Assembly (NCBI GenBank): GCA_016185615.1
Contig: JACPNE010000004.1
Coordinates: 4,625-68,624 of the forward strand
DNA length: 64,000 nucleotides
Origin: Candidatus Woesearchaeota archaeon
GTDB lineage: Archaea > Nanobdellota > Nanobdellia > SCGC-AAA011-G17 > JACPNG01
Direction: 5' to 3'
Each line of letters begins with the position of its first letter. Within the stretch, counting starts at the first letter, position 1. Of this stretch, positions 29,966-64,000 are shown in pieces. The notes beneath the pieces are model-generated. The model did not search any database. It was given only the letters and a program-made list of their open reading frames with translations, and was not told the DNA's origin. Both the position numbers and the translations under genes were made by a program.

Positions 29966-30517
29966 ATGAAAAGTCAAAAGACAAGATTTGAAACTGAACT
30001 AAGGCAGAATTACAATGAAGATATGTCCAATATTCTTGTAAGATTCAAATGGTTCAGAAAGAGATTATTTTATAGGTGGATTATAAAAAAATGGTTCAAA
30101 AACTGCAATGATATTTTAGATGTGGGCGCAGGAAACGGGGAATTTGTAAGAATAGCAAAAAGACTTGGAAAAAACTGTATCGGAATAGATATTAATAATT
30201 CAAGGGCAGAAAATCCATTAATCAAACATATGGATTTTAGGGATGTTAATTTCCAAGTTGATGGGGTATTCTCTATGATGCTATTGGAGCATGTTGATTG
30301 CTTTGAGTTTATGGAAAAAATGTCTAATGTTTGTAAGAAAAGATTAGTAACTGTAACTTATTATCCTGTAAGAAGCTTTTGGCAGTCTCCAGATCATACT
30401 AGACCTTATCTTCCAATAACTTTGAAAAGATTATACAAGGCTTATGGATTCAAGCCAATATTTGCTAGAAGGATAAGTTATACTACTGTAATGGCTGTGG
30501 GGGATAAGATTTACTAA
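29966..30517 (+). CDS. class I SAM-dependent methyltransferase
   Basis: Motif I ILDVGAGNGEFV. Confidence 0.65.
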   Translation: MKSQKTRFETELRQNYNEDMSNILVRFKWFRKRLFYRWIIKKWFKNCNDILDVGAGNGEFVRIAKRLGKNCIGIDINNSRAENPLIKHMDFRDVNFQVDGVFSMMLLEHVDCFEFMEKMSNVCKKRLVTVTYYPVRSFWQSPDHTRPYLPITLKRLYKAYGFKPIFARRISYTTVMAVGDKIY

Positions 30518-30571
30518 TATGTCAAATAAATTCAAAGTAAATTATTTGAGTTTAGACTTGGAGTTTTCAGC

Positions 30572-32266
30572 ATGAGAATACTCGGGATTAATGATTCGCA
30601 CGATGCAGGTGTTACATTAATAGACAACGATAAAGTCATTTCTATCAACGAAGAAAGATTAAACAGAATGAAGTTATGTTATGGGTTTCCAGGGATGTCT
30701 CTTAATGAAGCGCTTAAGATTGCTAATCTAAAACCAGAAGACATAACCTATGTTTCTATAGCAACAAAATATGCAAAGTTTGTTCCAAAGCCAATTCCAC
30801 ATAGTGATATGGCATTATTGTTAATGGAAGACCGCTCTAAGATAAGTGAATTAAGTCCATATCTTGGATTTTTATTTAACAAGAATATCTGGACAAAAAT
30901 ACAAAAAAGATTTCTCGATTCAAAGAGAATAGAAAGGCAGAAAGAAATAACTAATTTATTAAGGGAATTGGGATTTAAATGCCCAATAACTTTCGTTGAG
31001 CATCATCTATGTCATGCAGCAAGTGCACATTTCACATCCGGCTTGAATAAAACTTTGATAATAACTTCAGATGCGGCAGGAGATGGATTATCAACAACTG
31101 TTTCTATAGGAGAAAAACATGAAATAAAAAGGTTGTACGAGTCTAATTCATACAATTCAATAGCAAAATTCTACAGCTATGTTACCTCAATTCTTGGATT
31201 CAGTATGGGAAAGCATGAAGGAAAAGTAACAGGATTAGCTGCATATGGAAAACCAATTTATCTTAATGTTTTCAAAAAGATGATAATCTCGAAAAATGGA
31301 AAAATAATAAATATCTCAAATTCAAGGCATGATCAGAGTATAAAAAAAATTCTTAAAAAAATTGGAGATAATTTCAGCAAAGAAGATTTAGCATCAAGTA
31401 TACAGTTACATTTAGAGAATGAGTTCTCAAACTTTGTTGAACATTGGGTTAATAAAACCGGGATAAAAGATGTTGTTTTGGCTGGTGGCTTATTTGCTAA
31501 TGTTAGATTAAATCAGAAGATACATGAGATAAAAGGGATAAACTCTGTTTATGTCCATCCGCATATGGGTGATGGTGGATTAAGCATGGGTGCAGCATTA
31601 TATACAAAGAATAAGTTTTCATATTATAATAAAAAATTAGATACAGTTTATTTTGGAAACGAGTATGATGATGAAGCAATAAGGAAAGCACTGGATAAAA
31701 ATAGAGTAAATTACAGGTATCACAGGAGCATTGAGAAAGAAATAGCAAGATTATTAGCTGCTGGAAAAGTTGTAGCAAGATTTAATGGTGCTATGGAGTA
31801 TGGCCCAAGGGCTCTGGGAAATAGGAGCATATTGTATCAAGCTAATGATCCTAAAGTAAATGACTGGTTGAATAAAAAATTAAAGAGAACAGAATTTATG
31901 CCATTTGCTCCCGTTACATTAAGTGAATTAGCATCTAAAAGTTATCTGAATTTGAATGGTGCTGAATACGCTGCTAAATTTATGACAATAACATTTTATT
32001 GTAATGAAGAGATGAAAGAGAGTTGTCCCGCTGTTGTTCACCTTGATAACACTGCACGTCCACAATTAATTTCAGAGAAAGAAAATCCAAGCTACTACAA
32101 AATATTAAGAGAGTATTACAAATTGACTAATGTTCCTACGATAATTAACACAAGTTTCAACATGCATGAAGAGCCTATTGTGTGCTCTCCAGAAGACGCT
32201 ATAAGATCATTCAAGCAGGGTCATCTCGATTATTTAGCTATTGGAAATTTCTTGGTTGAGAATTAG
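30572..32266 (+). CDS. carbamoyltransferase (NodU/CmcH family)
   Basis: N-terminal MRILGINDSHDAGVTLI..., an HxxH region, and a size of 564 aa typical of O-carbamoyltransferases. Confidence 0.8.
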   Translation: MRILGINDSHDAGVTLIDNDKVISINEERLNRMKLCYGFPGMSLNEALKIANLKPEDITYVSIATKYAKFVPKPIPHSDMALLLMEDRSKISELSPYLGFLFNKNIWTKIQKRFLDSKRIERQKEITNLLRELGFKCPITFVEHHLCHAASAHFTSGLNKTLIITSDAAGDGLSTTVSIGEKHEIKRLYESNSYNSIAKFYSYVTSILGFSMGKHEGKVTGLAAYGKPIYLNVFKKMIISKNGKIINISNSRHDQSIKKILKKIGDNFSKEDLASSIQLHLENEFSNFVEHWVNKTGIKDVVLAGGLFANVRLNQKIHEIKGINSVYVHPHMGDGGLSMGAALYTKNKFSYYNKKLDTVYFGNEYDDEAIRKALDKNRVNYRYHRSIEKEIARLLAAGKVVARFNGAMEYGPRALGNRSILYQANDPKVNDWLNKKLKRTEFMPFAPVTLSELASKSYLNLNGAEYAAKFMTITFYCNEEMKESCPAVVHLDNTARPQLISEKENPSYYKILREYYKLTNVPTIINTSFNMHEEPIVCSPEDAIRSFKQGHLDYLAIGNFLVEN

Positions 32267-33167
32267 AATTGTTCATTAAGATATAGCTATATATTAATCC
32301 AAATGAGAATGATATGATAACAGAAGCTAATCTGTCTAATAAAGCTACTTGCAATCCTTCAGCAGCAGTTAATCCAAGGAAAGTTGAAGATAATGTTATG
32401 ATAAATTCAGTTACTCCCAATCCAGCAGGAGTGATACTTATAAGGGTAGATATTGTCGAGAATATTGATACTATAAAAATAACAAATATTGGAATAGATA
32501 AATCAAATGATCTATAAGCGAAAAATAATCTAGTTCCCATTATAAGGACAAATAATAGTTCATAGACAGATAATTTATATAATAATCTCGAATCTTTGCT
32601 TAATAATTTCCATCCATTGATTATATTGATAATCCAGTTAAGGATTTTATTATTTCTTCTTCTGAATTCTGGGGGAAAAAATACCAAGAACAATGTTGCT
32701 AAAGTTAATAAAAGGAATGCGATAAAAATCCATATATTAAATATATTAAGATATAATAAAGCTAAAACAGTCAATAATAATCCAGATAAGCCATAAACTA
32801 AAAATCTTATTATGTATAAAGCAGTCATTGTTGTCAAAAAAGTTGCATAAGGAAAATTATGGATTTTCTTAAGATAAAAACCCCTAGCAATGACACCCCC
32901 CCTTGGAGTCAGATAATTACCCATTACTGTAATTGCGGCTAACCCCATCCATTCTTTTATTTTTAAATTGATATTATAGTAGCTTGAGAATAATTTTATT
33001 CTGATTCCATTTATGTATAATCCAAGAAATGAAAGAAATATCATTAAAGGAAGATACCTAAAAGATATTTTTGGAATGATTGTAAAATCATAGTAATTAC
33101 TTTTAATGAATATAAAAAGCAAAATTAACAAAACTAGATACGCCAAGAGAGTCATTAGCTTTTTCAT
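32238..33167 (-). CDS. flippase-like / LPG-synthase-TM-like integral membrane protein
   Basis: About eight TM segments with a basic N-terminus. The assignment is tentative. Confidence 0.4.
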   Translation of the reverse strand: MKKLMTLLAYLVLLILLFIFIKSNYYDFTIIPKISFRYLPLMIFLSFLGLYINGIRIKLFSSYYNINLKIKEWMGLAAITVMGNYLTPRGGVIARGFYLKKIHNFPYATFLTTMTALYIIRFLVYGLSGLLLTVLALLYLNIFNIWIFIAFLLLTLATLFLVFFPPEFRRRNNKILNWIINIINGWKLLSKDSRLLYKLSVYELLFVLIMGTRLFFAYRSFDLSIPIFVIFIVSIFSTISTLISITPAGLGVTEFIITLSSTFLGLTAAEGLQVALLDRLASVIISFSFGLIYSYILMNNSNSQPRNFQ

Positions 33168-33247: not shown

Positions 33248-33880
33248 ATGAGTAATAAAATGCTGAAAGACAGAGAGGGAATACTAAAAAAGTATTTAGT
33301 CAGACCATTTTCAACAAGAATTACAAAAGTTATTGTAGATACAAAGATAACTCCGAACCAGATAACATTATTATATATTTTATTATCTTTACTATCATCT
33401 TACTTCTTCCTGCAAGGTTCATATAGAGAGTTGATTATAGGGGCAGTAATACTAAAAATAGCATATATATTTGATGGTGTTAATGGAGAACTAGCAAGAA
33501 TAAGAAAAATAACCTCAGAGTTTGGATCATGGTTCGATGATTTTGGAGACAGAATAAGAGAATCTGTTACATTTATTTCATTAGCAATTGGCTTATATAA
33601 GATATCAAATGATGTGAATGTTCTTTATCTTGGATTATTAGCCATAGCAAACGTATTGTTAGTGGCATTCGCGAAATCTCCGACATTATCAAAAAATGTT
33701 TCAACAAAACCAGAATTTAATATAGGAAAAAACTTTTTCGGATTCACAGACACAACAGTTTATGTAACAATTATATTAGCATTATTAAACCAAGTTTATA
33801 TTCTTTTATGGATATATTCTACAGTCGGGGCTTTAGTATGGATGAAGAAATTAATCTCAATATACAAAGAGCACAATTAG
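33248..33880 (+). CDS. CDP-alcohol phosphatidyltransferase family protein
   Basis: Carries the DG(x)2AR(x)8G(x)3D(x)3D motif: FDGVNGELARIRKITSEFGSWFDDFGD. Confidence 0.75.
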   Translation: MSNKMLKDREGILKKYLVRPFSTRITKVIVDTKITPNQITLLYILLSLLSSYFFLQGSYRELIIGAVILKIAYIFDGVNGELARIRKITSEFGSWFDDFGDRIRESVTFISLAIGLYKISNDVNVLYLGLLAIANVLLVAFAKSPTLSKNVSTKPEFNIGKNFFGFTDTTVYVTIILALLNQVYILLWIYSTVGALVWMKKLISIYKEHN

Positions 33881-34563
33881 TCTTTTCTTATTATAACTAA
33901 AAGATATCCAGCAAAAATCTTTAGCCAGGATCTTTGCAAATTTTTATCAAGAAATTTTAAAATATTTGATACCAATGGAATTCTATATACAAATCCAAAC
34001 GGAGTAAATATTCTTATTCCATAAACTTTCTCAATTTTCGTATTTTCAGGCAGAATCATTTTTATGTCATTTATTGTATCATATCTGGAAAAAGTCCTAT
34101 TTCCGGATGTATAATCCCTAAATCGATTTGTGAGAAATTTCATACTTAATGGATTATAAAACTCGAGTATTAATACCCCATTTTTCTTTGTTACTCTTGA
34201 CATCTCTTCCAATGCTTTCTTTATATCAGCAACATGTGGCAAAACTTTTAATGAATAAACAACATCAAACTGATTATTTTTGAATGGAATATCAGTTGCG
34301 CTCGCTTGTTTTACATCTAATTTCTTTTTCTTTGCATTATTTAACATCCCGGAACTTAAATCAATCCCCTTTGCAGATTTTGCTATTTTAGAAACCCTTT
34401 CTAAAACCAATCCAGTTCCGCATCCGACTTCTAACACATTTTTTTCTTTTGCTAACTTGAAGATTTTTTCTAATTCCAGATTTCTCACAAAGTTATGATA
34501 GCTGGTTGATCTTTCCGAATCATATTTCTTATAATCATCATAATAATTTTTTATTGGTCTCAT
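33877..34563 (-). CDS. class I SAM-dependent methyltransferase
   Basis: Motif I VLEVGCGTGLV. Confidence 0.7.
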   Translation of the reverse strand: MRPIKNYYDDYKKYDSERSTSYHNFVRNLELEKIFKLAKEKNVLEVGCGTGLVLERVSKIAKSAKGIDLSSGMLNNAKKKKLDVKQASATDIPFKNNQFDVVYSLKVLPHVADIKKALEEMSRVTKKNGVLILEFYNPLSMKFLTNRFRDYTSGNRTFSRYDTINDIKMILPENTKIEKVYGIRIFTPFGFVYRIPLVSNILKFLDKNLQRSWLKIFAGYLLVIIRKD

Positions 34564-36035: not shown

Positions 36036-36132
36036 TTTAACTATAAAAACAGAAATTATCTGTCCCACCACCTCCAAACTTATATCTTTACCGATAATAT
36101 AATTTAAAAAGCTTTTTATTACATATTATAAA

Positions 36133-40907: not shown

Positions 40908-40957
40908 AGATAAATTTAATAAATAAAAGGATAATTAAATTATTGGGTGGTGTTAAG

Positions 40958-43048: not shown

Positions 43049-43174
43049 TTATTTCAACTTCTCTATGAACTCATTAATACAAGGCCTGCAGATTCTCTTG
43101 CCTTTAAACTCATTATAAGGCAATGGCTCTAGTACAAATTGATTACAAAATACGCATTTATCATAATTTTCCAT
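43049..43174 (-). CDS. small zinc-ribbon protein (41 aa)
   Basis: CVFC...(17)...CRPC pattern, with GAGGGG SD upstream. It overlaps the end of the preceding GT4 gene by 14 nt. Confidence 0.4.
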   Translation of the reverse strand: MENYDKCVFCNQFVLEPLPYNEFKGKRICRPCINEFIEKLK

Positions 43175-52886: not shown

Positions 52887-52887
52887 T

Positions 52888-54456: not shown

Positions 54457-54470
54457 CCTAACCACCACAC

Positions 54471-56751: not shown

Positions 56752-57726
56752 ATGAAATTACTGGTTACTGGGGGTCTTGGATTTATAGGAAGCAATTTTG
56801 TAAGATATATTCTTGATAAATATCCTAATTATGAGTTAATTAATCTAGATAAAGTAACTTATTGTGGAAGATACGAAAATCTAAAGGATATAGAAAATAA
56901 TCCTAATTATACCTTTGTAAAGGGAGATATAGGCAATCAAGAGTTAGTTGAGCATATTATAAATCATCATAAGCCAGATGTGGTTGTTAATATTGCTGCT
57001 GAATCCCATAATGATAATGCAATAAAAGATCCCCATATTTTTGTAAAAACTAATGTTTTGGGAACCCAAGTATTATTGCATGCTTGTTTAGATAAAGTAA
57101 AGAGATTTCATCATGTCTCAACCTGTGAAGTTTATGGAGATTTGGATTTAGATTCAGATGAAAAATTTACAGAGTCTACAAGATATGCCCCTAAGTCTCC
57201 TTATAATGCTTCCAAAGCTGGCTCTGATCATATTGTAATGGCTTATTACCACACATTTGGACTTCCTGTTACAATATCAAATGCTGGAAATAATTATGGC
57301 CCATATCAATATCCTGAAAAATTAATTCCATTGTTTGTTACAAATGCGATTGAGAATAAAAAGCTCCCATTATTCAAATCCAGTCAAAATAAAAGAGAAT
57401 GGATTCATGTATTAGATCATTGTAGAGCAATTGATGCAATAATCCATAAAGGAAAAGTTGGACAGTATTACAATGTTGGAACTGGAGTAGAAAAAAACAT
57501 TGAGGAGATAACTAAAATAATTTTAAATCATTTGCAAAAGCCCGAGTCATTAAAGGAGTATGTTCCAGACAGGAAAAGCCATGACAGAAGATATTTGTTG
57601 GATTCCTCAAAAATAATGAACGAGATTGGATGGGCTCCTGAAATTGATTTTGATCAAGGAATTAAAGAAACAATAGATTGGTATAAGGAGAACGAATGGT
57701 GGTGGAGGCCATTGAAAAATGCCTAA
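56752..57726 (+). CDS. rmlB: dTDP-glucose 4,6-dehydratase
   Basis: Carries MKLLVTGGLGFIGSNFVRY and YNASKAGSD (YxxxK). Confidence 0.85.
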   Translation: MKLLVTGGLGFIGSNFVRYILDKYPNYELINLDKVTYCGRYENLKDIENNPNYTFVKGDIGNQELVEHIINHHKPDVVVNIAAESHNDNAIKDPHIFVKTNVLGTQVLLHACLDKVKRFHHVSTCEVYGDLDLDSDEKFTESTRYAPKSPYNASKAGSDHIVMAYYHTFGLPVTISNAGNNYGPYQYPEKLIPLFVTNAIENKKLPLFKSSQNKREWIHVLDHCRAIDAIIHKGKVGQYYNVGTGVEKNIEEITKIILNHLQKPESLKEYVPDRKSHDRRYLLDSSKIMNEIGWAPEIDFDQGIKETIDWYKENEWWWRPLKNA

Positions 57727-59599
57727 ATTAGTTATTGGATTAAGAGCATATTTAGTAAGGGAAAAAGATAAAGAATTGGATTTACAGATAAAAGAAGCAA
57801 GAAAATATTTTCCGAATGCTGATATAGTTGTAACTGTGTGCGGAAATAAATATAATTCATTCACAAAAAGAAAAGCAAATAATATAATTTATTATAGTGA
57901 AAAGCCATTGGGATTAGGAAAGACTTGGGAGATAATTGTTGACTATGCAAAGAAGAAAAATGCAGATGAAGTAATTGTTGTTGATGGGGATGACCAGCAT
58001 TTCTTCAGTGAGATAAAAAAGATTTATGAACAATATAAATCACAATTAGTAATTCCGCAGAGAGAAAAGAGATTTATATTCTCTGGAGATTCAGAATTAC
58101 ATGGAATCACATTAGAAGATCTGGAAAATGCTTTTATAAGATATAAACATAAAACAAGGATAAATGACCTGCAATCTGGATTATTTATAATAAAAGATAA
58201 AAGAATAATTAATGGATTGGATTTCTCAAACAAAAATTCATTCATTGGGGACTTTCTATTCCTTGATCAAGTATTGGATAAAAAGATAGATATTGGACTT
58301 CCTGTAATAAGAATAAGACCGCAAACCTCAACTATATCAAGCAGGAGTTTGGTATTTTCTGGAATAAAAGCTTATGAAGATTATTTTGGAATTAAATTCA
58401 AAGAGATAATAAAAATATCAATGCGTGATCCTAATTTCTATCTCCCAAATGGCAAACTAAGTGTATTAACAAAGATAGAAGAATTGTATTTAGAGCATAT
58501 AAATTCTGAGAAAGTAAAAGATATGAAGGGATTAATTCTGGCTGGAGGTTATGGAACAAGATTAAGACCAATTACATATACTGTCCAGAAACAGCTAATT
58601 CCAATAGCCAATAAGCCAATAATCTATTACGTCATAGAAGATTTAGTCAATTCCGGAATAAATGATATTGGTATTGTTATAGGTCAAAATAAACATCAAT
58701 TCATAAAAATAGTTGGAGACGGTTCCAAATGGAATGCAAAGATAACTTATATTAACCAAGATAATCCAAAAGGATTAGCTCATGCTGTATTAATCTCAAA
58801 AGAATTCCTAGATGGAAAGGATTTTGTTATGTATTTAGGAGACAATCTTCTGAAAGAAAATATTCATGAATTTGTAAAGAAATTTAATAACTCAAATGTT
58901 GATGCCAGTATATTATTGACCCCTGTTTCTGATCCTGAAAAATTTGGAATAGCAAAGTTAGATAGTAATGGAAATGTAATCAAATTATTAGAAAAACCAA
59001 AAAACCCCCCAACTAACTTAGCTATAGTGGGAGTTTATACATTTAGAAATTCTATATTCAAAGCAATCTCTAGTATTAAACCATCTAAAAGAGGAGAACT
59101 AGAAATAACAGATGCCATGCAATGGTTATTGGATAATAAATATAAAATTTCGTCTACTCTAATAAAAGATTACTGGAAAGATACAGGAAATGCAGAAGCA
59201 TTATTAGATGCCAATAGAATGATTTTAGATAGCAGATTAAATGGCTATTCTAATCTAGGAAAAGTATCAGATGCATCAACAATAAAGGGAAGAGTAAAAA
59301 TAGGAAAGAATACAATAATTTATGACAACTCAATTATAAGTGGTCCAGTTGTCATCGGAGATAATTGCAAAATAGGTCCAAATGCTTATATTGGCCCATA
59401 CACATCAATAGGGGATGGTGTAATAGTAAAGGAGACTGAACTAGAAAATTCCATTGTATTGAATAACTCATATATAAATTCCGGAAAAAGAATTGTTGAT
59501 AGCATAATGGGAGAAAACAGTAAAGTTTCATCTGCAAAGAATAATCTTCCAGAAGGTCATAAGCTTATAATAAGCGATAATTCTGAGGTTGGGTTGTAA
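57719..59599 (+). CDS. glucose-1-phosphate thymidylyl/nucleotidyltransferase with left-handed beta-helix C-terminus, fused to an extra 260-aa N-terminal domain
   Basis: The central region has KGLILAGGYGTRLRPITYTVQKQLIPIANKP (RmlA-like). The C-terminus has hexapeptide repeats (IGDNCKIGPNAYIGPYTSIGDGVIV). The first 260 aa or so are unassigned and contain VIVVDGDDQH. Confidence 0.75.
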   Translation: MPKLVIGLRAYLVREKDKELDLQIKEARKYFPNADIVVTVCGNKYNSFTKRKANNIIYYSEKPLGLGKTWEIIVDYAKKKNADEVIVVDGDDQHFFSEIKKIYEQYKSQLVIPQREKRFIFSGDSELHGITLEDLENAFIRYKHKTRINDLQSGLFIIKDKRIINGLDFSNKNSFIGDFLFLDQVLDKKIDIGLPVIRIRPQTSTISSRSLVFSGIKAYEDYFGIKFKEIIKISMRDPNFYLPNGKLSVLTKIEELYLEHINSEKVKDMKGLILAGGYGTRLRPITYTVQKQLIPIANKPIIYYVIEDLVNSGINDIGIVIGQNKHQFIKIVGDGSKWNAKITYINQDNPKGLAHAVLISKEFLDGKDFVMYLGDNLLKENIHEFVKKFNNSNVDASILLTPVSDPEKFGIAKLDSNGNVIKLLEKPKNPPTNLAIVGVYTFRNSIFKAISSIKPSKRGELEITDAMQWLLDNKYKISSTLIKDYWKDTGNAEALLDANRMILDSRLNGYSNLGKVSDASTIKGRVKIGKNTIIYDNSIISGPVVIGDNCKIGPNAYIGPYTSIGDGVIVKETELENSIVLNNSYINSGKRIVDSIMGENSKVSSAKNNLPEGHKLIISDNSEVGL

Positions 59600-59658: not shown

Positions 59659-60870
59659 ATGAAAATATACAATCTAAAAAGTGAAGCAGCTGCTTGGGAA
59701 GAAGTCCAGAGACTTAGAAGAGATTTTAATCCAGAATTATTAAAAGATATTAGAATAAATTCTGGGGAGGAAGCTGTTGAAAGAGCAACAGAAGTTATAC
59801 AAAGATTATTAACTGATTTAAAAGATTATAATCTTAATTTTCCACAAATATCTCCGGGTCATGGATCAGGACATTTAACACGTGATTTTGTTAATGCCGG
59901 AATTTTATTTAGAAATTTAGAGACCGACCCAAGAGATGCATTTGTGGGATTTGTTGGTGGTTCTTTACATGATATTGGTTGTGTAATCATCTCAAGATAT
60001 GAAGAGTCTACAAGAGCTGTTAGACATGCAGAAGCTGGTGCATTATTTACAAGACATTTATTGGAAAATCAAAAAGATTTGAGTGATTTAGAAAGAACAG
60101 CTATAGCTTATTCAATTGCAGCACATACACATTATAGGGGAGAATCAGAAGTGAAATGTGATGATGGTGAAACAAGAATAGTTAAGCCTTATATGGAATT
60201 AGATAAAAATGGAAAACCAGTATGGCCTGTATGGTTTACAAGATGGGTTGATAGACTTGATTGTAATGGTCCAGCTTATTTAGGCAGACATTATCTAACT
60301 CTTGCTGAAGAACATAAAGATTTTGATGGACTAACTCATTTTGATGTTAGGTTTGCTCACCATATGACACCGTTACTAAGACATTTCAAAGATCAAGTTG
60401 ATGATAAAGGAGTGAGAAATCAAACTATGAGTGAACATATGAAAATGTTTGCTGATTCTCAGACTAATGAATCTCCTTATGGAAAGCATGATTATGGATT
60501 TATGGTTCAGTTAAGAGATGGTTCCAAAGATATGTTAAATAGGATAGTTTATGCCACACAAGTTCCTACTATATTTAGTCCGGAAAGAGAAAGAGAAATT
60601 CGTGAAGTATGGAGAAAATTTTTATATGGGAATGTAGAACCTTCAATGTTAGGATCAGTAACATCGGGAACTCTTGATGGAATGTTTGGTGAATTAGAGG
60701 ATAAAACAAGACATGCTTGGTGCAGTGCATTCTTAACAACAATATATGAATATAGTAGATGGGCTGAAGAAAGACTAAAATATATTGAAAGACAAGATTC
60801 AAGATCATATTCATTTAAACCAATAACAGATGATGTAAGAGAAGTAATCAAACCAAGATATTGGGAATAA
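59659..60870 (+). CDS. HD-domain phosphohydrolase-like protein
   Basis: Carries GHGSGHL...(about 30)...GSLHDIG, i.e. H...HD spacing. Its amino-acid composition (W/R/H/D-rich) is atypical relative to neighbouring genes. Confidence 0.45.
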   Translation: MKIYNLKSEAAAWEEVQRLRRDFNPELLKDIRINSGEEAVERATEVIQRLLTDLKDYNLNFPQISPGHGSGHLTRDFVNAGILFRNLETDPRDAFVGFVGGSLHDIGCVIISRYEESTRAVRHAEAGALFTRHLLENQKDLSDLERTAIAYSIAAHTHYRGESEVKCDDGETRIVKPYMELDKNGKPVWPVWFTRWVDRLDCNGPAYLGRHYLTLAEEHKDFDGLTHFDVRFAHHMTPLLRHFKDQVDDKGVRNQTMSEHMKMFADSQTNESPYGKHDYGFMVQLRDGSKDMLNRIVYATQVPTIFSPEREREIREVWRKFLYGNVEPSMLGSVTSGTLDGMFGELEDKTRHAWCSAFLTTIYEYSRWAEERLKYIERQDSRSYSFKPITDDVREVIKPRYWE

Positions 60871-61418
60871 TTATTTTAAAGATGATAAAAGAGGTTATAT
60901 CTATAAAGAATTCTAGATTAATCAAGCCAATTTATTTAACTTGTAGAATCAACCGTAATGGTCCTACTTATGATATAAATCCTTTGAAGACAGACCCAAG
61001 AACAAAAGAACTTGGACTTGAATTAGAGGATTTAATGCCTTCTTATTTTGTAATAGTAAATCCAAAAGCCCATAGGGGGGGTATAAGTGGGCATTATCAT
61101 AATAAGAAAAAAGAAATTTATTCTTTGATAAACGGAAGGTTGATTTTTTTCGTTTCTGATCTGTCTGGAAACAGAGAAATAATAGATTTTGACACTAGAA
61201 TTCCTAATAATGTTAAAGAAGGGGGGAAAATTAAATTTCCTGTTATATACCTACCACCAAAAGTTGCTCATCTAGTATATAATCCACTAAATTATACACA
61301 AACATTATTGGTATTGTCAAGATACTCTGATGAAGAAGCTTTCAAAGGTGGTGATATAATAGAATTTGACGCTGTTGGCGGAGAACTTAAGAAAGTTGCT
61401 TCAGAAATAAGATTATAA
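60861..61418 (+). CDS. dTDP-4-keto-6-deoxyhexose 3,4-ketoisomerase-like cupin (FdtA/QdtA, WxcM C-terminal-like)
   Basis: Carries AHRGGISGHYHNKKKE resembling the RGxHAH(K) motif of FdtA-type isomerases. It lies between rmlB/rmlA and a DegT aminotransferase. Confidence 0.5.
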   Translation: MGIIILKMIKEVISIKNSRLIKPIYLTCRINRNGPTYDINPLKTDPRTKELGLELEDLMPSYFVIVNPKAHRGGISGHYHNKKKEIYSLINGRLIFFVSDLSGNREIIDFDTRIPNNVKEGGKIKFPVIYLPPKVAHLVYNPLNYTQTLLVLSRYSDEEAFKGGDIIEFDAVGGELKKVASEIRL

Positions 61419-62567
61419 TAATTTATTATATATTTTCTCTAAACTTTCAATCTGTTTAAGTATGTCATATTCTTTTTCAACATGATCTCTTCCATATTTT
61501 CCCATCTGTTTCCATAATTTAGGATTTTCTATTAAATAACTTAATCTATCAGCTAAAGCATCAACATCCCTTTCAGAGACTAAAAATCCAGATTTCTTAT
61601 CAATAACTTCTTCGGGAATATCACAATGCAATGTTGAAACTACTGGCATTCCAGTTGCTTGAGCATTTAATAATACAATTGGTGCTCCTCCTTCTATGTC
61701 TCCATTCTCTGCAGTAACGCTTGGGTGTACGAAGATATGGGCATTCAACAATTCTTCTACTAATCTATTCAGGGGAATAAGCCCGACTAATTCTATATTC
61801 CTAAGATTTAATGATTTTATTAATTCCTCAATTTTAAGCCTTAATTGCCCGTCTCCAATTAATCTTAGCTTAACATTATTATATTTCTTTTCTATTTTAG
61901 CAAATGCTCTAATCAGATATTCGATACCTTTCTTTTCCTCAAACCTTGCGACCATTAAGAGAATAATCTCCTTATCTGATTTTCTTTCCTTAAATGGAAA
62001 TTTATTTACATCAATTCCCAAATGATTAATTATTATTTTGTTTTCATCACAGCCAGCATTAATTAAAACTTTTTTTGCGTTGCTTCCTTCAACTAAGAAT
62101 AGGTCTCCTTCTTTGAAAAGTTTATTATAAATTCCGGGCTCTCTTTTAGGAGCTTGGATTAAGTCATACCCATAAAATGATGTTATTAAGGGAACTCCTA
62201 AAGCTTTTTTTAATTTTATAAATCCCATACCATTAGTTCCAAAATGGGCATGTAATAATTTAATATTATTCTCTTCCCTTAACTTTCTAAATTTTTTATT
62301 TACTAAAAATCTGTAACTAAAATCAGTTGTATATTTTAACGTGTTCATAAACTTTGTTTTTAATTCACTATCATAATATAATCTATTTCTGATAAAAAAA
62401 TATGGATACTGAATTATTTTATCCTTATCAAAAGGATAATTTTCTGCATTCTCAACCCTATTGGTTAGAACCAATCCATTAAAATCCTTGAGAAAAGCTA
62501 TTTGATAATATATCCAACTATTAGTTAAAGGCAAAAATGTATCTATTATATGTAATACTGATTTCAC
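61413..62567 (-). CDS. GT4 family glycosyltransferase
   Basis: C-terminal GDIEGGAPIVLLNAQATGMPVVST motif. Confidence 0.8.
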   Translation of the reverse strand: MKSVLHIIDTFLPLTNSWIYYQIAFLKDFNGLVLTNRVENAENYPFDKDKIIQYPYFFIRNRLYYDSELKTKFMNTLKYTTDFSYRFLVNKKFRKLREENNIKLLHAHFGTNGMGFIKLKKALGVPLITSFYGYDLIQAPKREPGIYNKLFKEGDLFLVEGSNAKKVLINAGCDENKIIINHLGIDVNKFPFKERKSDKEIILLMVARFEEKKGIEYLIRAFAKIEKKYNNVKLRLIGDGQLRLKIEELIKSLNLRNIELVGLIPLNRLVEELLNAHIFVHPSVTAENGDIEGGAPIVLLNAQATGMPVVSTLHCDIPEEVIDKKSGFLVSERDVDALADRLSYLIENPKLWKQMGKYGRDHVEKEYDILKQIESLEKIYNKLL

Positions 62568-62629
62568 TTTGAAAATGTATGAGTAATGTTTATAAAACTT
62601 ATCACATCAATAAAATAAAGGTAATAAAT

Positions 62630-63814
62630 ATGCCAAAGTCTAAGTATAAGTTAAGAGAGAAATTCCTAGTATTCGGCCAGCCAGACATTAGGGGGGAAGA
62701 AATAAATGAGGTTATAGCTACATTAAAATCAAAATGGATTGGTGCAGGTCCAAGAGTCAAGATTTTCGAGGAAGAATTTGCAAAATATGTTAATGCAAAA
62801 AAGGCAATAGCAGTTAATTCCTGTACAGCTGCATTGGACTTATGCTTAATTGCTTCTGGGATAAAGCCAGGAGACGAAATAATTACAACACCAATGACAT
62901 TCTCAGCTACAGCAAACGTAATCTGCCATATTGGAGCAAAGCCTGTCTTTGTTGATGTTGATTATGATACTATGAATATTTCTCCTAAGAATATTGAAAA
63001 AGCAATTACAAAAAAAACAAAAGCAATAATTCCAGTTCATATGGCTGGCTATCCTTGCGATATGGATAAAATTATGGAGATAGCTAAAAAACATAATTTG
63101 ATTATTATAGAAGATGCTGCTCATGCTGTCGGTTCAATCTATAAAGGAAAAAAGATAGGCTCTTTAGGACCATTAGCTTGTTTTAGTTTTTACCCTAACA
63201 AAAATATAACAACAATCGAGGGAGGGATTGTTACAACACAGGATGAAGAATTAGCTGAAAGAATAAGAATGTTATCAAATCATGGATTATCTCATGATTC
63301 ATGGAAAAGATTTTCTGATAAGTTAGTAGAAGGTTATGATACAATAGAACCAGGATTTAATTACAGGATGAGTGATGTACAAGCTGCAATAGGAATGCAC
63401 CATTTGAGAAGATATGAGAAAGAAAATCTTAAGAGAAGAGAAGAAATTGCTAAGAGATATGATGGAGCATTTAAGGATCTACCTTTAGAAACTCCAAAGA
63501 TGCCGACTGGAAACTCAAGAAGTTCAAGATATTTATATATTTTAAGATTAGACTTAAATAAATTAAATCTAGATAGAAGTAAGTTTAGACAAGAAATGTT
63601 CTCTAGAAATATAGGGACAGGAATACATTATACAGCTTTACATTTACATACACTCTATAAGGAAAAGTATGGATATAAAGAAGGAGACTTTCCAGTAGCA
63701 GAAGATATCTCTAAAAGAACTGTATCTATTCCATTATCCAGCGCATTGACAGAAGATGATGTGAATGATGTCATAAACGCAGTAATAGATGTATGCAATA
63801 AATTCAGAAAATAA
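62630..63814 (+). CDS. DegT/DnrJ/EryC1/StrS family PLP-dependent sugar aminotransferase
   Basis: The N-terminus carries GQPDIRGEEINEV. The Lys-containing region SFYPNKNITTIEGG is present. The start was trimmed to the internal ATG (MPKSKYK). Confidence 0.8.
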   Translation: MPKSKYKLREKFLVFGQPDIRGEEINEVIATLKSKWIGAGPRVKIFEEEFAKYVNAKKAIAVNSCTAALDLCLIASGIKPGDEIITTPMTFSATANVICHIGAKPVFVDVDYDTMNISPKNIEKAITKKTKAIIPVHMAGYPCDMDKIMEIAKKHNLIIIEDAAHAVGSIYKGKKIGSLGPLACFSFYPNKNITTIEGGIVTTQDEELAERIRMLSNHGLSHDSWKRFSDKLVEGYDTIEPGFNYRMSDVQAAIGMHHLRRYEKENLKRREEIAKRYDGAFKDLPLETPKMPTGNSRSSRYLYILRLDLNKLNLDRSKFRQEMFSRNIGTGIHYTALHLHTLYKEKYGYKEGDFPVAEDISKRTVSIPLSSALTEDDVNDVINAVIDVCNKFRK

Positions 63815-63830
63815 ATATCTTGAGTTTTGT

Positions 63831-64000
63831 ATGAAAATTAAAAAAAGAATTTTTAGAAAATATTTAAGAGAACTCCATACTGGAGATTATCTGACACTAT
63901 CCATTTGGGAGGTTATAAAATCAAAATTCTTTCTTGGAAATTTAATAGAGGGAAAATATATAACAAGATTTGAGAATGCCTTCAAAAATAAAATAGAAGC
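63831..64000 (+). CDS. partial ORF (N-terminal 56 aa), truncated by the window end
   Basis: Open frame from the ATG to the window edge. FENAFKNKIE is reminiscent of a DegT-family N-terminus but too short to call. Confidence 0.3.
   Translation, partial: MKIKKRIFRKYLRELHTGDYLTLSIWEVIKSKFFLGNLIEGKYITRFENAFKNKIE

What the first reader, a model, noticed from the sequence alone, without database searches (positions are those of the whole stretch)
29966..64000. Glycan assembly/tailoring island of more than 34 kb, packed with radical SAM enzymes
About 28 consecutive genes include five B12-binding radical SAM paralogs and two rSAM/SPASM paralogs. They also include three SAM methyltransferases, a carbamoyltransferase, a CDP-alcohol phosphatidyltransferase, GT2/GT4/GT9/GT-C transferases, a Wzx flippase, a Dol-P-sugar synthase and a dTDP-aminodideoxyhexose pathway. 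Ordinary S-layer or N-glycan clusters carry zero or one radical SAM enzyme. Seven here points to a heavily C-methylated, oxidised or otherwise unusually tailored glycan or glycolipid. The sequon-rich surface proteins at 161-2809 and 25625-28078 are plausible acceptors. The island runs off the window end.
Basis: partly seen in the sequence, partly recalled or inferred. Interest (0 to 1): 0.85.

Follow-up and report, generated by a model that had tools for sequence, protein, structure and literature searches.

The report
Radical-SAM-rich surface glycan island, DPANN archaeon
A tiny marine archaeon of the DPANN group devotes at least 36 kb to building a cell-surface sugar coat, and a quarter of those genes are intact radical-SAM enzymes; several are linked to lipid-carrier sugar enzymes in a gene combination that recurs across Bacteria and Archaea but has never been studied.

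Summary
Window 29966-64000 holds 27 complete genes and one cut gene. Five are B12-binding radical SAM (rSAM) proteins. Two are rSAM proteins with a Cys-rich SPASM/twitch tail, and one of these is fused to a GT2 glycosyltransferase. All seven have an intact CxxxCxxC motif and no internal stops. The other assignments also hold.

The host is a marine DPANN archaeon (Nanoarchaeota/Nanoarchaeia). An identical contig shows a second DegT gene and a sixth B12-domain gene just past the window end.

The five B12-rSAMs are old paralogs, 28-33% identical. None reaches the cut-off of any curated family. Three rSAM genes (48072-54489) are absent from a collinear relative, so the number varies between strains.

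A core is conserved in relatives: a Dol-P-sugar-synthase-like GT2, a B12-rSAM, a class-I methyltransferase, a flippase-like protein and a PMT_2 GT-C transferase. B12-rSAMs of this kind, singly or in arrays of up to seven, also sit beside Dol-P-synthase-like GT2 genes, and in three loci beside a PMT_2 gene, in many uncultured lineages. One also lies in a heptose-type glycan cluster on a Lawsonia plasmid.

My best reading is radical tailoring of lipid-linked sugars for a variable surface glycan. The chemistry (C-methylation, ring contraction or deoxygenation) is inferred, not shown. I class it as a new variant of a known kind.

The parts
29966..30517 (+). Class-I SAM methyltransferase (MT_a), 183 aa. 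Leftmost gene of the contiguous island.
   Evidence: PF08241 scores 31.9 bits, above the cut-off of 21.2.
30572..32266 (+). NodU/CmcH-type carbamoyltransferase, 564 aa.
   Evidence: Carbam_trans_N E 8e-33 and Carbam_trans_C E 5e-59. NodU scores 124 bits, far below its cut-off of 1000.
32238..33167 (-). Flippase-like membrane protein of the LPG_synthase_TM family, with about 7 TM segments.
   Evidence: PF03706 E 3e-26. TIGR00374 'flippase-like domain' scores 63.5, above its cut-off of 43.2. TM count. A protein of the same Pfam family (PF03706) lies in the relatives' clusters L006 and L092.
33248..33880 (+). CDP-alcohol phosphatidyltransferase, 210 aa, about 4 TM segments.
   Evidence: PF01066 E 3.5e-15. 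Nearest curated families are DIPP synthase and archaetidylinositol-phosphate synthase, both below cut-off. Conserved in L006 at 35%.
33877..34563 (-). Class-I SAM methyltransferase (MT_b).
   Evidence: PF08241 E 2.6e-24. Homologues lie beside R2-like genes in L006, L094, L095, L102 and L103.
34605..36077 (-). B12-binding radical SAM protein R1.
   Evidence: PF02310 E 2e-20 and PF04055 E 2e-26. CPHKCIFC at residue 209. 28-32% identical to R2-R5. No close orthologue among the fetched loci.
36133..37854 (+). PMT_2-family GT-C glycosyltransferase, 573 aa, about 11 TM segments.
   Evidence: PF13231 E 6e-11. TM count. Orthologues at 38-40% lie next to R2 orthologues in L006, L007 and L092.
37938..39968 (+). 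Fusion of GT2 glycosyltransferase, helical linker and radical SAM with a SPASM/twitch tail, 676 aa.
   Evidence: PF00535 E 1e-32, PF04055 E 8e-18, PF13186 27.7 bits. About 55 full-length fusion homologues. D83, C346/C350/C353 and C587/C605/C643/C645 are invariant in 35 sequences. AF2 model pLDDT 90.7.
40026..40907 (+). Polyprenyl-phosphate (Dol-P) sugar-synthase-like GT2 (GT2_b), 293 aa, with two C-terminal TM helices.
   Evidence: Top PDB hits are P. furiosus DPMS 5mlz, ArnC and GtrB. AglJ model scores 158 bits, below its cut-off of 325. TM count. A homologue lies within 400 bp of a B12-rSAM in 15 of 80 GTDB loci.
40943..42418 (+). B12-binding radical SAM protein R2, the conserved 'core' paralog.
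   Evidence: PF02310 E 5e-22 and PF04055 E 8e-30. CGYRCTFC at residue 220. Orthologues at 98%, 82% and about 56% in relatives.
42491..42958 (+). Unknown 155-aa protein. It is absent from the 78-80%-identical relative L004.
   Evidence: No Pfam or NCBIfam hit. Falls in a window-specific segment relative to L004.
43161..44369 (-). GT4 glycosyltransferase (GT4_a).
   Evidence: PF00534 E 1e-39.
44443..45870 (+). B12-binding radical SAM protein R3.
   Evidence: PF02310 E 6e-16 and PF04055 E 6e-28. CPYSCTFC at residue 205. 77% orthologue in L004.
45905..47434 (+). Wzx/AglR-type polysaccharide flippase.
   Evidence: PF01943 E 3e-25. Polytopic.
47427..48143 (-). Class-I SAM methyltransferase (MT_c).
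   Evidence: PF08241 E 4e-22.
48245..49708 (+). B12-binding radical SAM protein R4. It lies in a strain-variable segment.
   Evidence: PF02310 E 1e-18 and PF04055 E 4.5e-27. CPFICNFC at residue 201. Window 48072-49714 has no counterpart in L004.
49705..51717 (-). GT2 + GT4 fusion glycosyltransferase, 670 aa. Only the GT4 half is shared with L004.
   Evidence: PF00535 E 5e-31 and PF00534 E 2e-34. Only 49715-50761 aligns to L004.
51771..52886 (-). Radical SAM protein with a Cys-rich C-terminal (twitch/SPASM-like) region. Strain-variable.
   Evidence: PF04055 E 2e-22. CNLKCHHC at residue 35 and Cys 286, 304, 339, 341, 345. 27% identical to the rSAM half of the fusion. Best PDB hit is SkfB.
52888..54468 (-). 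B12-binding radical SAM protein R5. Strain-variable.
   Evidence: PF02310 E 4e-21 and PF04055 E 1e-21. CPFTCTYC at residue 205. Window 50762-54489 is absent from L004.
54471..55541 (-). GT9 (heptosyltransferase-family) glycosyltransferase.
   Evidence: PF01075 E 4e-39. heptsyl_trn_III scores 160.7, just below its cut-off of 170.2.
55589..56707 (+). Second GT9 glycosyltransferase.
   Evidence: PF01075 E 6e-27.
56752..57726 (+). dTDP-glucose 4,6-dehydratase (RmlB).
   Evidence: TIGR01181 scores 451.6, above its cut-off of 365.
57719..59599 (+). Glucose-1-phosphate thymidylyltransferase, long form with a hexapeptide-repeat tail, preceded by a 265-aa N-terminal domain of unknown function.
   Evidence: TIGR01208 scores 462.8, above its cut-off of 320, over residues 270-626. 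The N-terminal domain gives only a weak GT2 match, E 0.003.
59659..60870 (+). HD-superfamily, phosphodiesterase-like protein from an unnamed family shared by DPANN and CPR. Its homologues sit among dTDP-sugar genes.
60861..61418 (+). Unknown 185-aa protein, possibly a cupin-fold sugar isomerase or epimerase.
   Evidence: Only weak matches: Polysacc_synt_C E 0.05 and Cupin_1 E 0.17.
61413..62567 (-). GT4 glycosyltransferase (GT4_b).
   Evidence: PF00534 E 3.5e-39.
62579..63814 (+). DegT/DnrJ/EryC1-family sugar aminotransferase.
   Evidence: PF01041 E 3e-132. Below every equivalog cut-off.
63789..64000 (+). Start of a second DegT aminotransferase, cut by the window end. On the identical contig L002 it is followed by a gene that opens with a B12-binding domain.
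   Evidence: L002 is 100% identical to window 58486-64000. L002:5304-6602 matches PF01041 at E 2e-84. L002:6640-7287 matches PF02310 at E 2e-11.
25625..28078 (-). Candidate acceptor: an 817-aa secreted protein with an N-terminal signal/TM, a Ser/Thr/Pro/Glu-rich stalk and a C-terminal TM anchor. It is strongly sequon-enriched.
   Evidence: 35 N-X-S/T sequons against 13.9 +/- 3.0 in 500 shuffles. Terminal TM segments. No Pfam family.
9499..10951 (-). Split HldE: heptose-7-phosphate kinase (9980-10951) and heptose-1-phosphate adenylyltransferase (9499-9990). These are the probable source of ADP-heptose for the two GT9 enzymes.
   Evidence: rfaE_dom_I scores 367.4, above its cut-off of 345. rfaE_dom_II scores 155.3, below its cut-off of 181.5.

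Best explanation
This is the flexible surface-glycan (glycoprotein and/or glycolipid) biosynthesis island of a marine DPANN archaeon. I read it as three layers.

1. A conserved core. GT2_b, a Dol-P-sugar-synthase-like GT2, loads a hexose onto dolichyl phosphate at the cytoplasmic face. The B12-binding rSAM R2 and a class-I methyltransferase tailor this lipid-linked sugar. The LPG_synthase_TM flippase-like protein moves it across the membrane. The PMT_2 GT-C transferase then delivers it to an acceptor outside the cell, either the Ser/Thr-rich stalk or the N-glycan of the neighbouring sequon-rich surface protein. This logic matches ArnC/ArnD/ArnT and AglD/AglR/AglS.

2. A Wzx-dependent oligosaccharide line. 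It uses GT4, GT2-GT4 and two GT9 enzymes, fed by a dTDP-amino-dideoxyhexose pathway (RmlA, RmlB, two DegT) and by ADP-heptose from the split HldE upstream. O-carbamoylation and O/N-methylation are added.

3. Strain-variable cassettes. These add further rSAM enzymes (R1, R3, R4, R5, the GT2-rSAM fusion and the stand-alone SPASM-type rSAM). Each would carry out a different radical reaction at unactivated sugar carbons. C-methylation is the most likely. Ring contraction, deoxygenation, oxidation or epimerisation are alternatives.

What is shown: gene identities, intact motifs, the conserved pairing, the strain variability and the fusion.

What is inferred: the substrates, the order of steps, the use of cobalamin and the acceptor.
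For: - All domains and motifs are confirmed.
- GT2_b resembles solved polyprenyl-phosphate glycosyltransferases (DPMS, ArnC, GtrB). It has two C-terminal TM helices.
- GT2_b, R2, PMT_2, a PF03706 flippase-like protein and a class-I methyltransferase stay together in relatives whose R2 is about 56% identical (L006, L007/L092).
- The same combination recurs in distant taxa: L021 (Nanoarchaeia) has three B12-rSAMs, PMT_2, three GT2 and a methyltransferase; L012 (Bacteroidales) has five B12-rSAMs, PMT_2 and DegT; L009 has seven B12-rSAMs and two GT2.
- On Lawsonia intracellularis plasmid 1, two Dol-P-synthase-like GT2 genes, a B12-rSAM, five class-I methyltransferases, a second rSAM and heptose-type genes sit together.
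- A GT2_b homologue lies within 400 bp of a B12-rSAM in 15 of 80 GTDB loci, and 32 of 61 loci of at least 10 kb hold glycan-gene homologues.
- The covalent GT2-rSAM fusion keeps both catalytic sites invariant across 35 homologues. This ties radical chemistry to glycosyl transfer.
- A Promethearchaeota locus joins GT2, the fusion, a UbiA prenyltransferase and two B12-rSAMs.
- A collinear relative swaps the R4 / GT2 / rSAM / R5 segment for methyltransferases. This is typical of replacement glycotype islands (PMC4033161).
- The adjacent 817-aa surface protein has 35 sequons against about 14 expected.
- Precedents exist for sugar-directed B12-rSAMs: GenK/GenD1, MoeK5 and HpnJ (PMC9204698). Calditol synthase is a further sugar-directed rSAM (PMC13459092).
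Against: - No product chemistry is known.
- None of the rSAMs passes a curated family cut-off.
- Proteins of equal similarity (31%) sit in a RiPP cluster in Clostridium estertheticum. Substrate class therefore rests on context alone.
- The closest solved homologue, AprD4, is a non-methylating diol dehydratase.
- No AglB and no initiating phosphoglycosyltransferase are present in the window.
- In one Nanoarchaeota genome the GT2-rSAM fusion sits alone among housekeeping genes.
- Whether this organism can obtain cobalamin is unknown.
The co-occurrence figures are therefore descriptive, not controlled.
Confidence: 0.55

Rival explanations
1. Same island and same glycan targets, but the B12-domain rSAMs are not methylases. 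They would perform ring contraction (as HpnJ and calditol synthase do, giving carbocyclic pseudo-sugars), diol dehydration or deoxygenation (as AprD4 does), or oxidation and cyclisation (as BchE does). Some might work without cobalamin.
For: - The top NCBIfam scores for all five are to BchE and HpnJ, both non-methylases.
- The best solved homologue is AprD4, at E 2e-25.
- The GT2 + B12-rSAM pairing parallels HpnI + HpnJ acting on a lipid-bound glucosamine (PMC9204698, PMC13459092).
- A DPANN cell is unlikely to make cobalamin (general knowledge, not tested here).
Against: - All those scores are far below the family cut-offs: 160-220 bits against 480-580.
- The N-terminal domains match PF02310 well (E 1e-16 to 1e-22). 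They align to the cobalamin domains of the methylases TokK and CysS, whereas AprD4 aligns only over the rSAM core.
- Most characterised members of this class are methylases (PMC9204698).
Confidence: 0.2
2. The rSAM enzymes and the core module remodel membrane lipids or glycolipid head groups, for example lipids taken from the host, rather than a protein-linked glycan. In this reading the B12-rSAMs act on isoprenoid chains or lipid head groups, as GrsA/B, Gmm and Cds do.
For: - A CDP-alcohol phosphatidyltransferase nearest to archaetidylinositol-phosphate and DIPP synthases, and a flippase-like LPG_synthase_TM protein, sit in the conserved core.
- A UbiA prenyltransferase lies in the related Asgard locus.
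- Several archaeal lipid-modifying enzymes are B12-rSAMs (PMC13459092).
- The ladderane-lipid B12-rSAM model scores 110-149 bits.
Against: - The same enzyme arrays occur in many Bacteria with GT2, GT4, DegT and RmlB genes, where archaeal lipids are absent.
- The island is dominated by nucleotide-sugar and glycosyltransferase genes plus a Wzx flippase.
- No lipid-synthesis genes are present in the window.
- A sequon-rich surface protein lies next door.
Confidence: 0.13
3. The island makes a diffusible glycosylated secondary metabolite, such as an aminoglycoside-like or moenomycin-like phosphoglycolipid, or a glycosylated RiPP or cofactor of the mycofactocin type. It would not be a structural surface glycan.
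For: - B12-rSAM, carbamoyltransferase, aminotransferases and glycosyltransferases together are the gene set of the gentamicin and moenomycin pathways (PMC9204698, PMC4340712).
- SPASM-type rSAMs are mostly peptide maturases. SkfB is the nearest structure.
- MftF and MftC models give weak hits.
- A 31%-identical homologue sits in a RiPP cluster.
Against: - No precursor peptide, protease, PqqD-like chaperone or export ABC system is present in the window.
- A Wzx flippase, a Dol-P-sugar-synthase-like GT2 and a GT-C transferase point to membrane-carrier assembly.
- Relatives carry the cluster, in two cases next to SecDF, and cassettes are replaced between strains. This is typical of surface glycans.
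- MftF and MftC scores are far below cut-off: 79 against 280 and 67 against 265.
Confidence: 0.07

Closest known systems
Haloferax volcanii Agl N-glycosylation cluster (AglJ, AglG/I/E, AglD, AglR, AglS, AglP, AglF, AglM, AglB; PMC3871713)
   Same: The logic is shared. A GT2 charges dolichyl phosphate (the AglJ model is the best NCBIfam hit of GT2_b). Soluble glycosyltransferases extend the chain. A Wzx-like flippase corresponds to AglR. A Dol-P-sugar-dependent transferase acts outside the membrane, as AglS does. A SAM methyltransferase corresponds to AglP. A sugar-1-phosphate nucleotidyltransferase and an NDP-sugar dehydrogenase lie nearby. The target is a sequon-rich surface protein.
   Different: The Agl pathway as described has no radical SAM enzyme. 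This island has seven in the window, and an eighth gene with a B12 domain follows. It also has GT9 enzymes with an ADP-heptose route, a carbamoyltransferase and a CDP-alcohol transferase. AglB is not in the window. GT2_b scores 158 bits against the AglJ cut-off of 325, so it is not an AglJ equivalog.
Three-component lipid-carrier glycosylation with tailoring on the carrier: ArnC/ArnD/ArnE-F/ArnT (and GtrA/B/C)
   Same: A polyprenyl-phosphate GT2 (ArnC and GtrB are among the top PDB hits of GT2_b), a modifying enzyme acting on the lipid-linked monosaccharide, a small flippase and a GT-C transferase.
   Different: Here the tailoring enzymes would be a B12-binding rSAM and a methyltransferase rather than a deformylase. 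The flippase-like protein belongs to the LPG_synthase_TM family. The acceptor is unknown. The role of ArnD is from general knowledge and was not tested here.
HpnI (GT2) / HpnK / HpnJ (B12-rSAM) in hopanoid cyclitol-ether synthesis, and calditol synthase Cds (PMC9204698, PMC13459092)
   Same: A GT2 places a hexosamine or hexose on a lipid. A rSAM then rearranges the lipid-bound sugar; HpnJ carries a B12 domain. HpnJ is the first or second best NCBIfam model for all five paralogs.
   Different: Scores are 164-216 bits against a cut-off of 578, so the paralogs are not HpnJ orthologues. No hopanoid or GDGT genes are present. Here there are five or six paralogs per island, and a GT-C transferase follows.
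Sugar C-methylating B12-rSAMs of antibiotic pathways: GenK/GenD1 (gentamicin), Fms7, MoeK5 (moenomycin, a phosphoglycolipid)
   Same: These are cobalamin-type rSAMs acting on sugar carbons. In moenomycin the saccharide is lipid-linked and also carbamoylated (from memory), which parallels the carbamoyltransferase here.
   Different: Those are secondary-metabolite clusters of actinomycetes. Sequence relationship to them could not be tested because no sequences were at hand. This island has a Wzx flippase, a GT-C transferase and a Dol-P synthase, and it behaves as a surface glycotype island.
Replacement flexible genomic islands (glycotype islands) of aquatic prokaryotes (PMC4033161)
   Same: The relative L004 is collinear over the shared part, but cassettes of glycan genes are exchanged between strains that are 73-80% identical at the nucleotide level. 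No mobile-element signatures are present.
   Different: The exchanged cassette here consists largely of radical SAM enzymes.

Membership tests
Radical SAM superfamily | CxxxCxxC motif that binds the [4Fe-4S] cluster, and a PF04055 match above the gathering score | tested here: met
   All seven proteins score 65.6-104.6 bits against PF04055, above the cut-off of 29.5. The motif is intact and there are no internal stops.
Class B (cobalamin-binding) radical SAM | N-terminal Rossmann-type B12-binding domain (PF02310) preceding the rSAM core | tested here: met
   R1-R5 score 58.8-78.5 bits against PF02310, above the cut-off of 32.1. The N-terminal regions align to the cobalamin domains of TokK and CysS.
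Class B (cobalamin-binding) radical SAM | Actual binding of cobalamin and methyl transfer (SAH + 5'-dAdo + methylated product) | not testable with these tools
   This needs biochemistry. The nearest solved homologue, AprD4, is a diol dehydratase rather than a methylase.
HpnJ / BchE / PhpK / Sden_1168 / HpnR equivalogs (NCBIfam) | Whole-protein score at or above the curated cut-off | tested here: not met
   The best scores are 161-220 bits for BchE (cut-off 481), 164-216 for HpnJ (578) and 110-187 for PhpK (600).
SPASM/twitch radical SAM | C-terminal Cys-rich domain that binds auxiliary Fe-S clusters (PF13186) | tested here: met
   This applies to the fusion 37938-39968. PF13186 scores 27.7, above the cut-off of 21.5. 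C587, C605, C643 and C645 are invariant in 35 homologues.
SPASM/twitch radical SAM | The same feature in the stand-alone rSAM 51771-52886 | tested here: inconclusive
   There is no PF13186 hit. It has five C-terminal Cys and is 27% identical to the fusion's rSAM half. The twitch model NF033640 scores 69 bits, below its cut-off of 170.
Polyprenyl-phosphate glycosyltransferase (DPMS / ArnC / GtrB / AglJ type GT2) | GT-A domain followed by C-terminal TM helices, and closest similarity to characterised Pol-P glycosyltransferases | tested here: met
   The top PDB hits are 5mlz DPMS, ArnC and GtrB. Two TM helices lie at residues 241-288.
AglJ equivalog (NCBIfam TIGR04182) | Score at or above 325 bits | tested here: not met
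   The score is 157.9 bits.
dTDP-6-deoxyhexose pathway | RmlA and RmlB above the curated cut-offs | tested here: met
   TIGR01208 scores 462.8 (cut-off 320.25) and TIGR01181 scores 451.6 (cut-off 365.1). The aminotransferase step has only a family-level match (PF01041), and the product sugar is not defined.
ADP-heptose pathway plus GT9 heptosyltransferases | HldE kinase and adenylyltransferase domains and a GT9 transferase above cut-off | tested here: inconclusive
   The kinase passes: 367.4 against 345. The adenylyltransferase scores 155.3 against 181.5, and GT9_a scores 160.7 against 170.2; both fall just below. No GmhA or GmhB was found in the window.
AglB-dependent N-glycosylation cluster | An oligosaccharyltransferase AglB (STT3 family) in or near the cluster | tested here: not met
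   No STT3-family hit was found in any scanned ORF. The three large unannotated proteins have only one or two TM segments. AglB may lie elsewhere in the genome.
Replacement (flexible) glycotype island | Conserved flanks and core, with non-homologous cassettes exchanged between related strains | tested here: met
   The window and L004 are collinear at 73-80% nucleotide identity. Window segments 42418-43187, 48072-49714 and 50762-54489 are replaced or absent.

The most novel reading that the evidence does not exclude
The conserved set of a Dol-P/Und-P-sugar-synthase-like GT2, one or several B12-binding radical SAM enzymes, a class-I methyltransferase and a PMT_2/GT-C transferase may define an undescribed pathway found in both Bacteria and Archaea. 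In it, cobalamin-dependent radical enzymes would rebuild polyprenyl-phosphate-linked sugars into C-alkylated or carbocyclic sugars before they are transferred to the cell surface. In a genome-reduced DPANN symbiont this would make the surface coat depend on cobalamin obtained from the host or community, and the strain-variable rSAM cassettes would generate surface diversity.
Probability: 0.3. Interest if true: 0.8.

Novelty: new variant of a known kind. Interest (0 to 1): 0.62.

Why it matters
Surface glycans decide how DPANN cells attach to hosts and how viruses recognise them. Their chemistry is unknown because these organisms are uncultured.

If the rSAM enzymes tailor carrier-linked sugars, this island and its many bacterial and archaeal counterparts encode sugar chemistry that current glycan models do not include, such as C-branched, carbocyclic or deoxygenated residues. 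It would also widen the known substrate range of cobalamin-type radical SAM enzymes. It would tie the cell envelope of a probable B12 auxotroph to vitamin supply from its community.

The core module is small, at about five genes. A related B12-rSAM glycan cluster also sits on a plasmid of Lawsonia intracellularis, an organism available as sequenced isolates. The hypothesis can therefore be tested directly.

Tried and rejected
- **Pseudogenes or disrupted motifs.** Rejected. All seven rSAM ORFs are intact.
- **Recent duplication of one rSAM gene.** Rejected. The paralogs are only 28-33% identical.
- **Foreign or mobile origin.** GC content is 25-32% in the island and 29-35% in the flank. No meaningful direct or inverted repeats, transposases or tRNA boundaries were found.
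- **Assigning R1-R5 to a characterised family.** NCBIfam and PDB sequence searches gave only sub-threshold hits.
- **Structure of the GT2-rSAM fusion.** The model is of high confidence. Foldseek returned only generic GT-A enzymes and SkfB, which does not inform on the substrate.
- **PMT_2 protein against PDB sequences.** No hit.
- **AglB in the window.** None found.
- **Literature.** Ten full-text searches found no paper linking radical SAM enzymes to archaeal N-glycosylation, DPANN glycan islands, or O-antigen, capsule or S-layer clusters. Subscription-only papers are not covered.
- **RiPP reading.** Considered because a Clostridium plasmid homologue lies in a RiPP cluster. I rated it low because the window has no RiPP-type genes.
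- **Right boundary of the island.** Only 1.8 kb more could be recovered (L002). Longer contigs of this strain are not in the collections.

Full report
**1. What is in the sequence**

ORF listing and Pfam/NCBIfam scans show 27 complete, tightly packed genes on both strands between 29966 and 63814. A 28th gene is cut by the window end.

Five genes encode proteins of 475-526 aa with an N-terminal B12-binding domain (PF02310, E 1e-16 to 1e-22) and a radical SAM core (PF04055, E 1e-21 to 1e-30):
- R1 34605-36077(-)
- R2 40943-42418(+)
- R3 44443-45870(+)
- R4 48245-49708(+)
- R5 52888-54468(-)

Two further rSAM proteins carry a Cys-rich C-terminus. One, 37938-39968, is a fusion of a GT2 glycosyltransferase, a helical linker and an rSAM/SPASM module. 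The other, 51771-52886, stands alone.

All seven have an intact CxxxCxxC and no internal stop codon.

The other assignments hold too:
- three class-I methyltransferases
- a NodU/CmcH-type carbamoyltransferase
- a CDP-alcohol phosphatidyltransferase
- a flippase-like LPG_synthase_TM protein
- a PMT_2 GT-C transferase with about 11 TM segments
- two GT4 enzymes, a GT2-GT4 fusion and two GT9 enzymes
- a Wzx-type flippase
- RmlB and a long-form RmlA, both above curated cut-offs
- a DegT aminotransferase

None of the roughly 33 ORFs scanned with Pfam in the first 30 kb of the window is an rSAM. Seven of 27 island genes is therefore a real local concentration.

**2. Whose genome it is, and where the island ends**

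The nearest proteins come from marine and groundwater MAGs named Candidatus Nanoarchaeia, Nanoarchaeota and Woesearchaeota. The window also encodes a diphthamide synthase. The host is a DPANN archaeon with about 30% GC.

Contigs with identical sequence exist only in three Logan assemblies, SRR12113429/31/33. L001 and L002 are 100% identical to the window over 10.6 kb and 5.5 kb. L002 therefore extends the window by 1.8 kb. It shows a second DegT gene, which starts at window 63789, and then a gene that opens with a B12-binding domain. The island therefore continues, probably with a sixth B12-type enzyme.

On the left, the contiguous island starts at about 29.9 kb, just after an MTA phosphorylase gene. 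More glycan genes lie further left:
- a split HldE: heptose-7-phosphate kinase at 9980-10951, above its cut-off, and an adenylyltransferase at 9499-9990, just below its cut-off
- GalE at 6048-7082
- a truncated NDP-sugar dehydrogenase at 7018-7878

The ADP-heptose genes fit the two GT9 'heptosyltransferase' genes in the island.

**3. The paralogs are old and unassigned**

R1-R5 share only 28-33% identity, and the two SPASM-type modules share 27%. None reaches the cut-off of any NCBIfam family. The best models are BchE and HpnJ at 160-220 bits, against cut-offs of 480-580. PhpK and Sden_1168 P-methylases, ApyD and a ladderane-lipid enzyme follow.

The nearest solved structures are AprD4 (E 2e-25, over the rSAM core only) and an unnamed rSAM protein, 9ccb. 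TokK and CysS align over the cobalamin domain.

A published sequence-similarity network places HpnJ, BchE, Fom3, MoeK5 and many methylases in one main cluster (PMC9204698). At this level of similarity, sequence cannot separate methylases from non-methylases.

**4. Comparison with relatives: a conserved core and variable cassettes**

A Tara contig (L004) whose R2 is 82% identical is collinear with window 37963-56665 at 73-80% nucleotide identity. Three window segments have no counterpart in it:
- 42418-43187, the unknown 155-aa gene
- 48072-49714, which holds R4
- 50762-54489, which holds the GT2 half of the GT2-GT4 fusion, the stand-alone rSAM and R5

L004 carries two class-I methyltransferases at the corresponding places. 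Three of the seven rSAM genes are therefore strain-variable. No repeats or mobile-element genes mark the junctions. This matches the 'replacement flexible island' pattern of surface-glycan loci (PMC4033161).

At about 56% R2 identity (L006, L007/L092), a core persists: a Dol-P-synthase-like GT2, R2, PMT_2, a PF03706 flippase-like protein and a class-I methyltransferase. In L007/L092 two extra B12-rSAMs lie alongside. In L092 and in the Pacearchaeota locus L115 the glycan cluster follows SecDF directly; in the window secDF lies about 24 kb away.

Among the fetched loci only R2 and R3 have clear orthologues.

**5. GT2_b and the pairing**

The 293-aa GT2 directly upstream of R2 finds P. furiosus Dol-P-mannose synthase, ArnC and GtrB as its top solved relatives. 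It has two C-terminal TM helices. Its best curated model is AglJ, below cut-off. It works like a polyprenyl-phosphate sugar synthase.

I took a capped sample of 80 GTDB loci by similarity to the R2 family. In that sample:
- 39 hold two or more B12-rSAM genes, with up to seven in L009 and L036
- 34 of the 61 loci of at least 10 kb hold two or more
- 32 of those 61 hold at least one homologue of the island's glycan genes
- 15 have a GT2_b homologue within 400 bp of a B12-rSAM

GT2_b homologues occur in 40 of 110 loci overall. Pfam confirms PMT_2 GT-C proteins next to the arrays in a Bacteroidales MAG (L012) and a Nanoarchaeia MAG (L021), and further GT2 genes in L009.

Among sequenced plasmids of named bacteria:
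- Lawsonia intracellularis plasmid 1 carries two GT2_b-like genes, GalE, a SIS protein, a B12-rSAM, five class-I methyltransferases, a second rSAM, a HAD-IIIA hydrolase and a GHMP kinase. This is a heptose-type glycan cluster.
- Solidesulfovibrio carbinolicus pDCAR1 has a similar enzyme beside glycosyl- and acyltransferases.

These figures are descriptive. The loci were chosen through R2 and no matched control was run.

**6. The fusion**

The GT2-rSAM/SPASM protein has about 55 full-length homologues down to 28% identity in Nanoarchaeota, Promethearchaeota and Lokiarchaeota MAGs. In 35 of them the GT2 aspartate D83, the three rSAM cysteines and four C-terminal cysteines are invariant. The AlphaFold model is confident, with pLDDT 90.7.

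A stable fusion of a glycosyltransferase and an rSAM is direct evidence that radical chemistry and glycosyl transfer act on one substrate. Structure search returned only generic GT-A enzymes (PcManGT, TarP/TarS) and SkfB, so the substrate stays open.

Context varies:
- In a Promethearchaeota locus the fusion sits with a GT2, a UbiA prenyltransferase and two B12-rSAMs.
- In a 98-kb metagenome contig of unassigned origin (L112) it sits in a Wzy/WecG/Bac_transf polysaccharide cluster.
- In another Nanoarchaeota genome it stands alone among housekeeping genes.

**7. Acceptors**

The 817-aa protein at 25625-28078, 2 kb from the island, has an N-terminal signal/TM, a Ser/Thr/Pro/Glu-rich stalk and a C-terminal TM anchor. 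It has 35 N-X-S/T sequons against 13.9 +/- 3.0 in shuffles. It is a credible glycoprotein.

The 882-aa protein at 161-2809 is not sequon-enriched: 13 against 11.3.

No AglB is present in the window.

**8. How it most likely works**

Shown:
- the gene set
- intact catalytic motifs
- the conserved co-location of a Dol-P-synthase-like GT2, a B12-rSAM, a methyltransferase, a flippase-like protein and a GT-C transferase
- the GT2-rSAM fusion
- cassette exchange between strains

Inferred:
- GT2_b charges dolichyl phosphate with a hexose.
- R2 and a methyltransferase tailor the carrier-bound sugar.
- The sugar is flipped and then transferred by the PMT_2 enzyme to the surface protein or its glycan. 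This follows the ArnC/ArnD/ArnT and AglD/AglR/AglS logic (PMC3871713 for the Agl pathway).
- In parallel, a Wzx-dependent oligosaccharide is built by GT4, GT9 and GT2-GT4 enzymes from dTDP-amino-dideoxyhexose and ADP-heptose, and is carbamoylated and methylated.
- The extra rSAM enzymes each perform a distinct radical step on sugar carbons.

C-methylation is the commonest activity in this enzyme class, with GenK, GenD1 and MoeK5 as sugar-directed examples (PMC9204698). Ring contraction, as by HpnJ or calditol synthase (PMC13459092), and AprD4-type deoxygenation are live alternatives.

Five to six enzymes at about 30% identity cannot all act on one hexose position. They must address different residues or successive steps.

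**9. Rivals**

- Non-methylating chemistry on the same targets: 0.20.
- Lipid or head-group remodelling: 0.13. The CDP-alcohol transferase, the flippase-like protein, the UbiA neighbour and the known archaeal lipid B12-rSAMs support it. The bacterial distribution and the glycan-dominated context argue against it.
- A secondary metabolite or glycosylated RiPP: 0.07. A 31%-identical Clostridium homologue lies in a RiPP cluster, which shows that similarity alone does not fix the substrate class. The window, however, has no precursor, protease or chaperone genes.

**10. Novelty and verdict**

Surface-glycan islands and their strain variability are well known, and so are sugar-directed B12-rSAMs in antibiotic pathways. 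Two things appear undescribed in the literature I could search (ten full-text searches, none relevant). The first is the concentration of radical SAM enzymes in an archaeal glycan island. The second is the recurrent, cross-domain linkage of such enzymes with a polyprenyl-phosphate sugar synthase and, in several loci, a GT-C transferase.

I rate it a new variant of a known kind, with interest 0.62.

Noticed in passing
[not shown]
   Followed up: partly
L002:5304-7287 (equals window 63789 to about 65774): On a 100%-identical contig, a second DegT aminotransferase lies just beyond the window end. The next gene starts with a B12-binding domain. It is probably a sixth B12-type radical SAM enzyme of the island.
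   Followed up: partly
window 9499-11301(-): A split HldE is present: a heptose-7-phosphate kinase above its curated cut-off and an adenylyltransferase just below its cut-off. A small cupin protein lies next to them. This is a bacterial-type ADP-heptose route in a DPANN archaeon, 43 kb from two GT9 genes. No GmhA or GmhB was seen in the window.
   Followed up: partly
window 7018-7878(-): An NDP-sugar dehydrogenase ORF lacks the first 65 or so residues of the NAD domain and the whole C-terminal domain. It overlaps the GalE gene by 65 nt. It is possibly a pseudogene or a mis-assembled gene.
   Followed up: no
window 28220-29005(-) and 7934-8455(-): An MTA phosphorylase (above its curated cut-off) lies directly beside the rSAM-rich island, and an adenine phosphoribosyltransferase lies 20 kb away. 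From general knowledge, MTAP-type enzymes can also clear 5'-deoxyadenosine, the inhibitory by-product of radical SAM enzymes. The link here is speculative.
   Followed up: no
window 14588-19448(-): A 2-oxoacid dehydrogenase complex (E1 alpha, E1 beta, E2) with a lipoate-protein ligase is present. A related marine scaffold (L006) carries citrate synthase and ATP-citrate-lyase-like genes. This is more central metabolism than is usual for DPANN genomes.
   Followed up: no
window 20754-25543 and 161-3609: Several adjacent ORFs have a single N-terminal TM or signal segment and no Pfam family: 2839-3609, 20754-21356, 21353-21904, 22058-23953 and 24821-25543. The 631-aa protein at 22058-23953 is Asn-rich (14%) yet depleted in sequons, with 2 against about 10 expected. 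These are possibly secreted or surface proteins of unknown role.
   Followed up: no
L009, L036, L012, L020, L041, L075 (GTDB loci): Tandem arrays of five to seven divergent B12-binding rSAM genes occur in uncultured Bacteria (for example a Bacteroidales and an Elusimicrobia MAG). In L036 seven lie head to tail within 10.3 kb. Their products are unknown.
   Followed up: partly
L119 (Clostridium estertheticum plasmid pDSM14864-244, 127438-134386): Two rSAM genes 31-33% identical to R2/R3 flank a PqqD-family protein and an S8 peptidase, with ABC transporter genes alongside. This looks like a RiPP cluster. It shows that this enzyme clade also serves peptide pathways.
   Followed up: no
window 57719-58513(+): The long-form RmlA carries an extra 265-aa N-terminal domain with only a weak GT2-like match (E 0.003). 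Its function is unknown.
   Followed up: no
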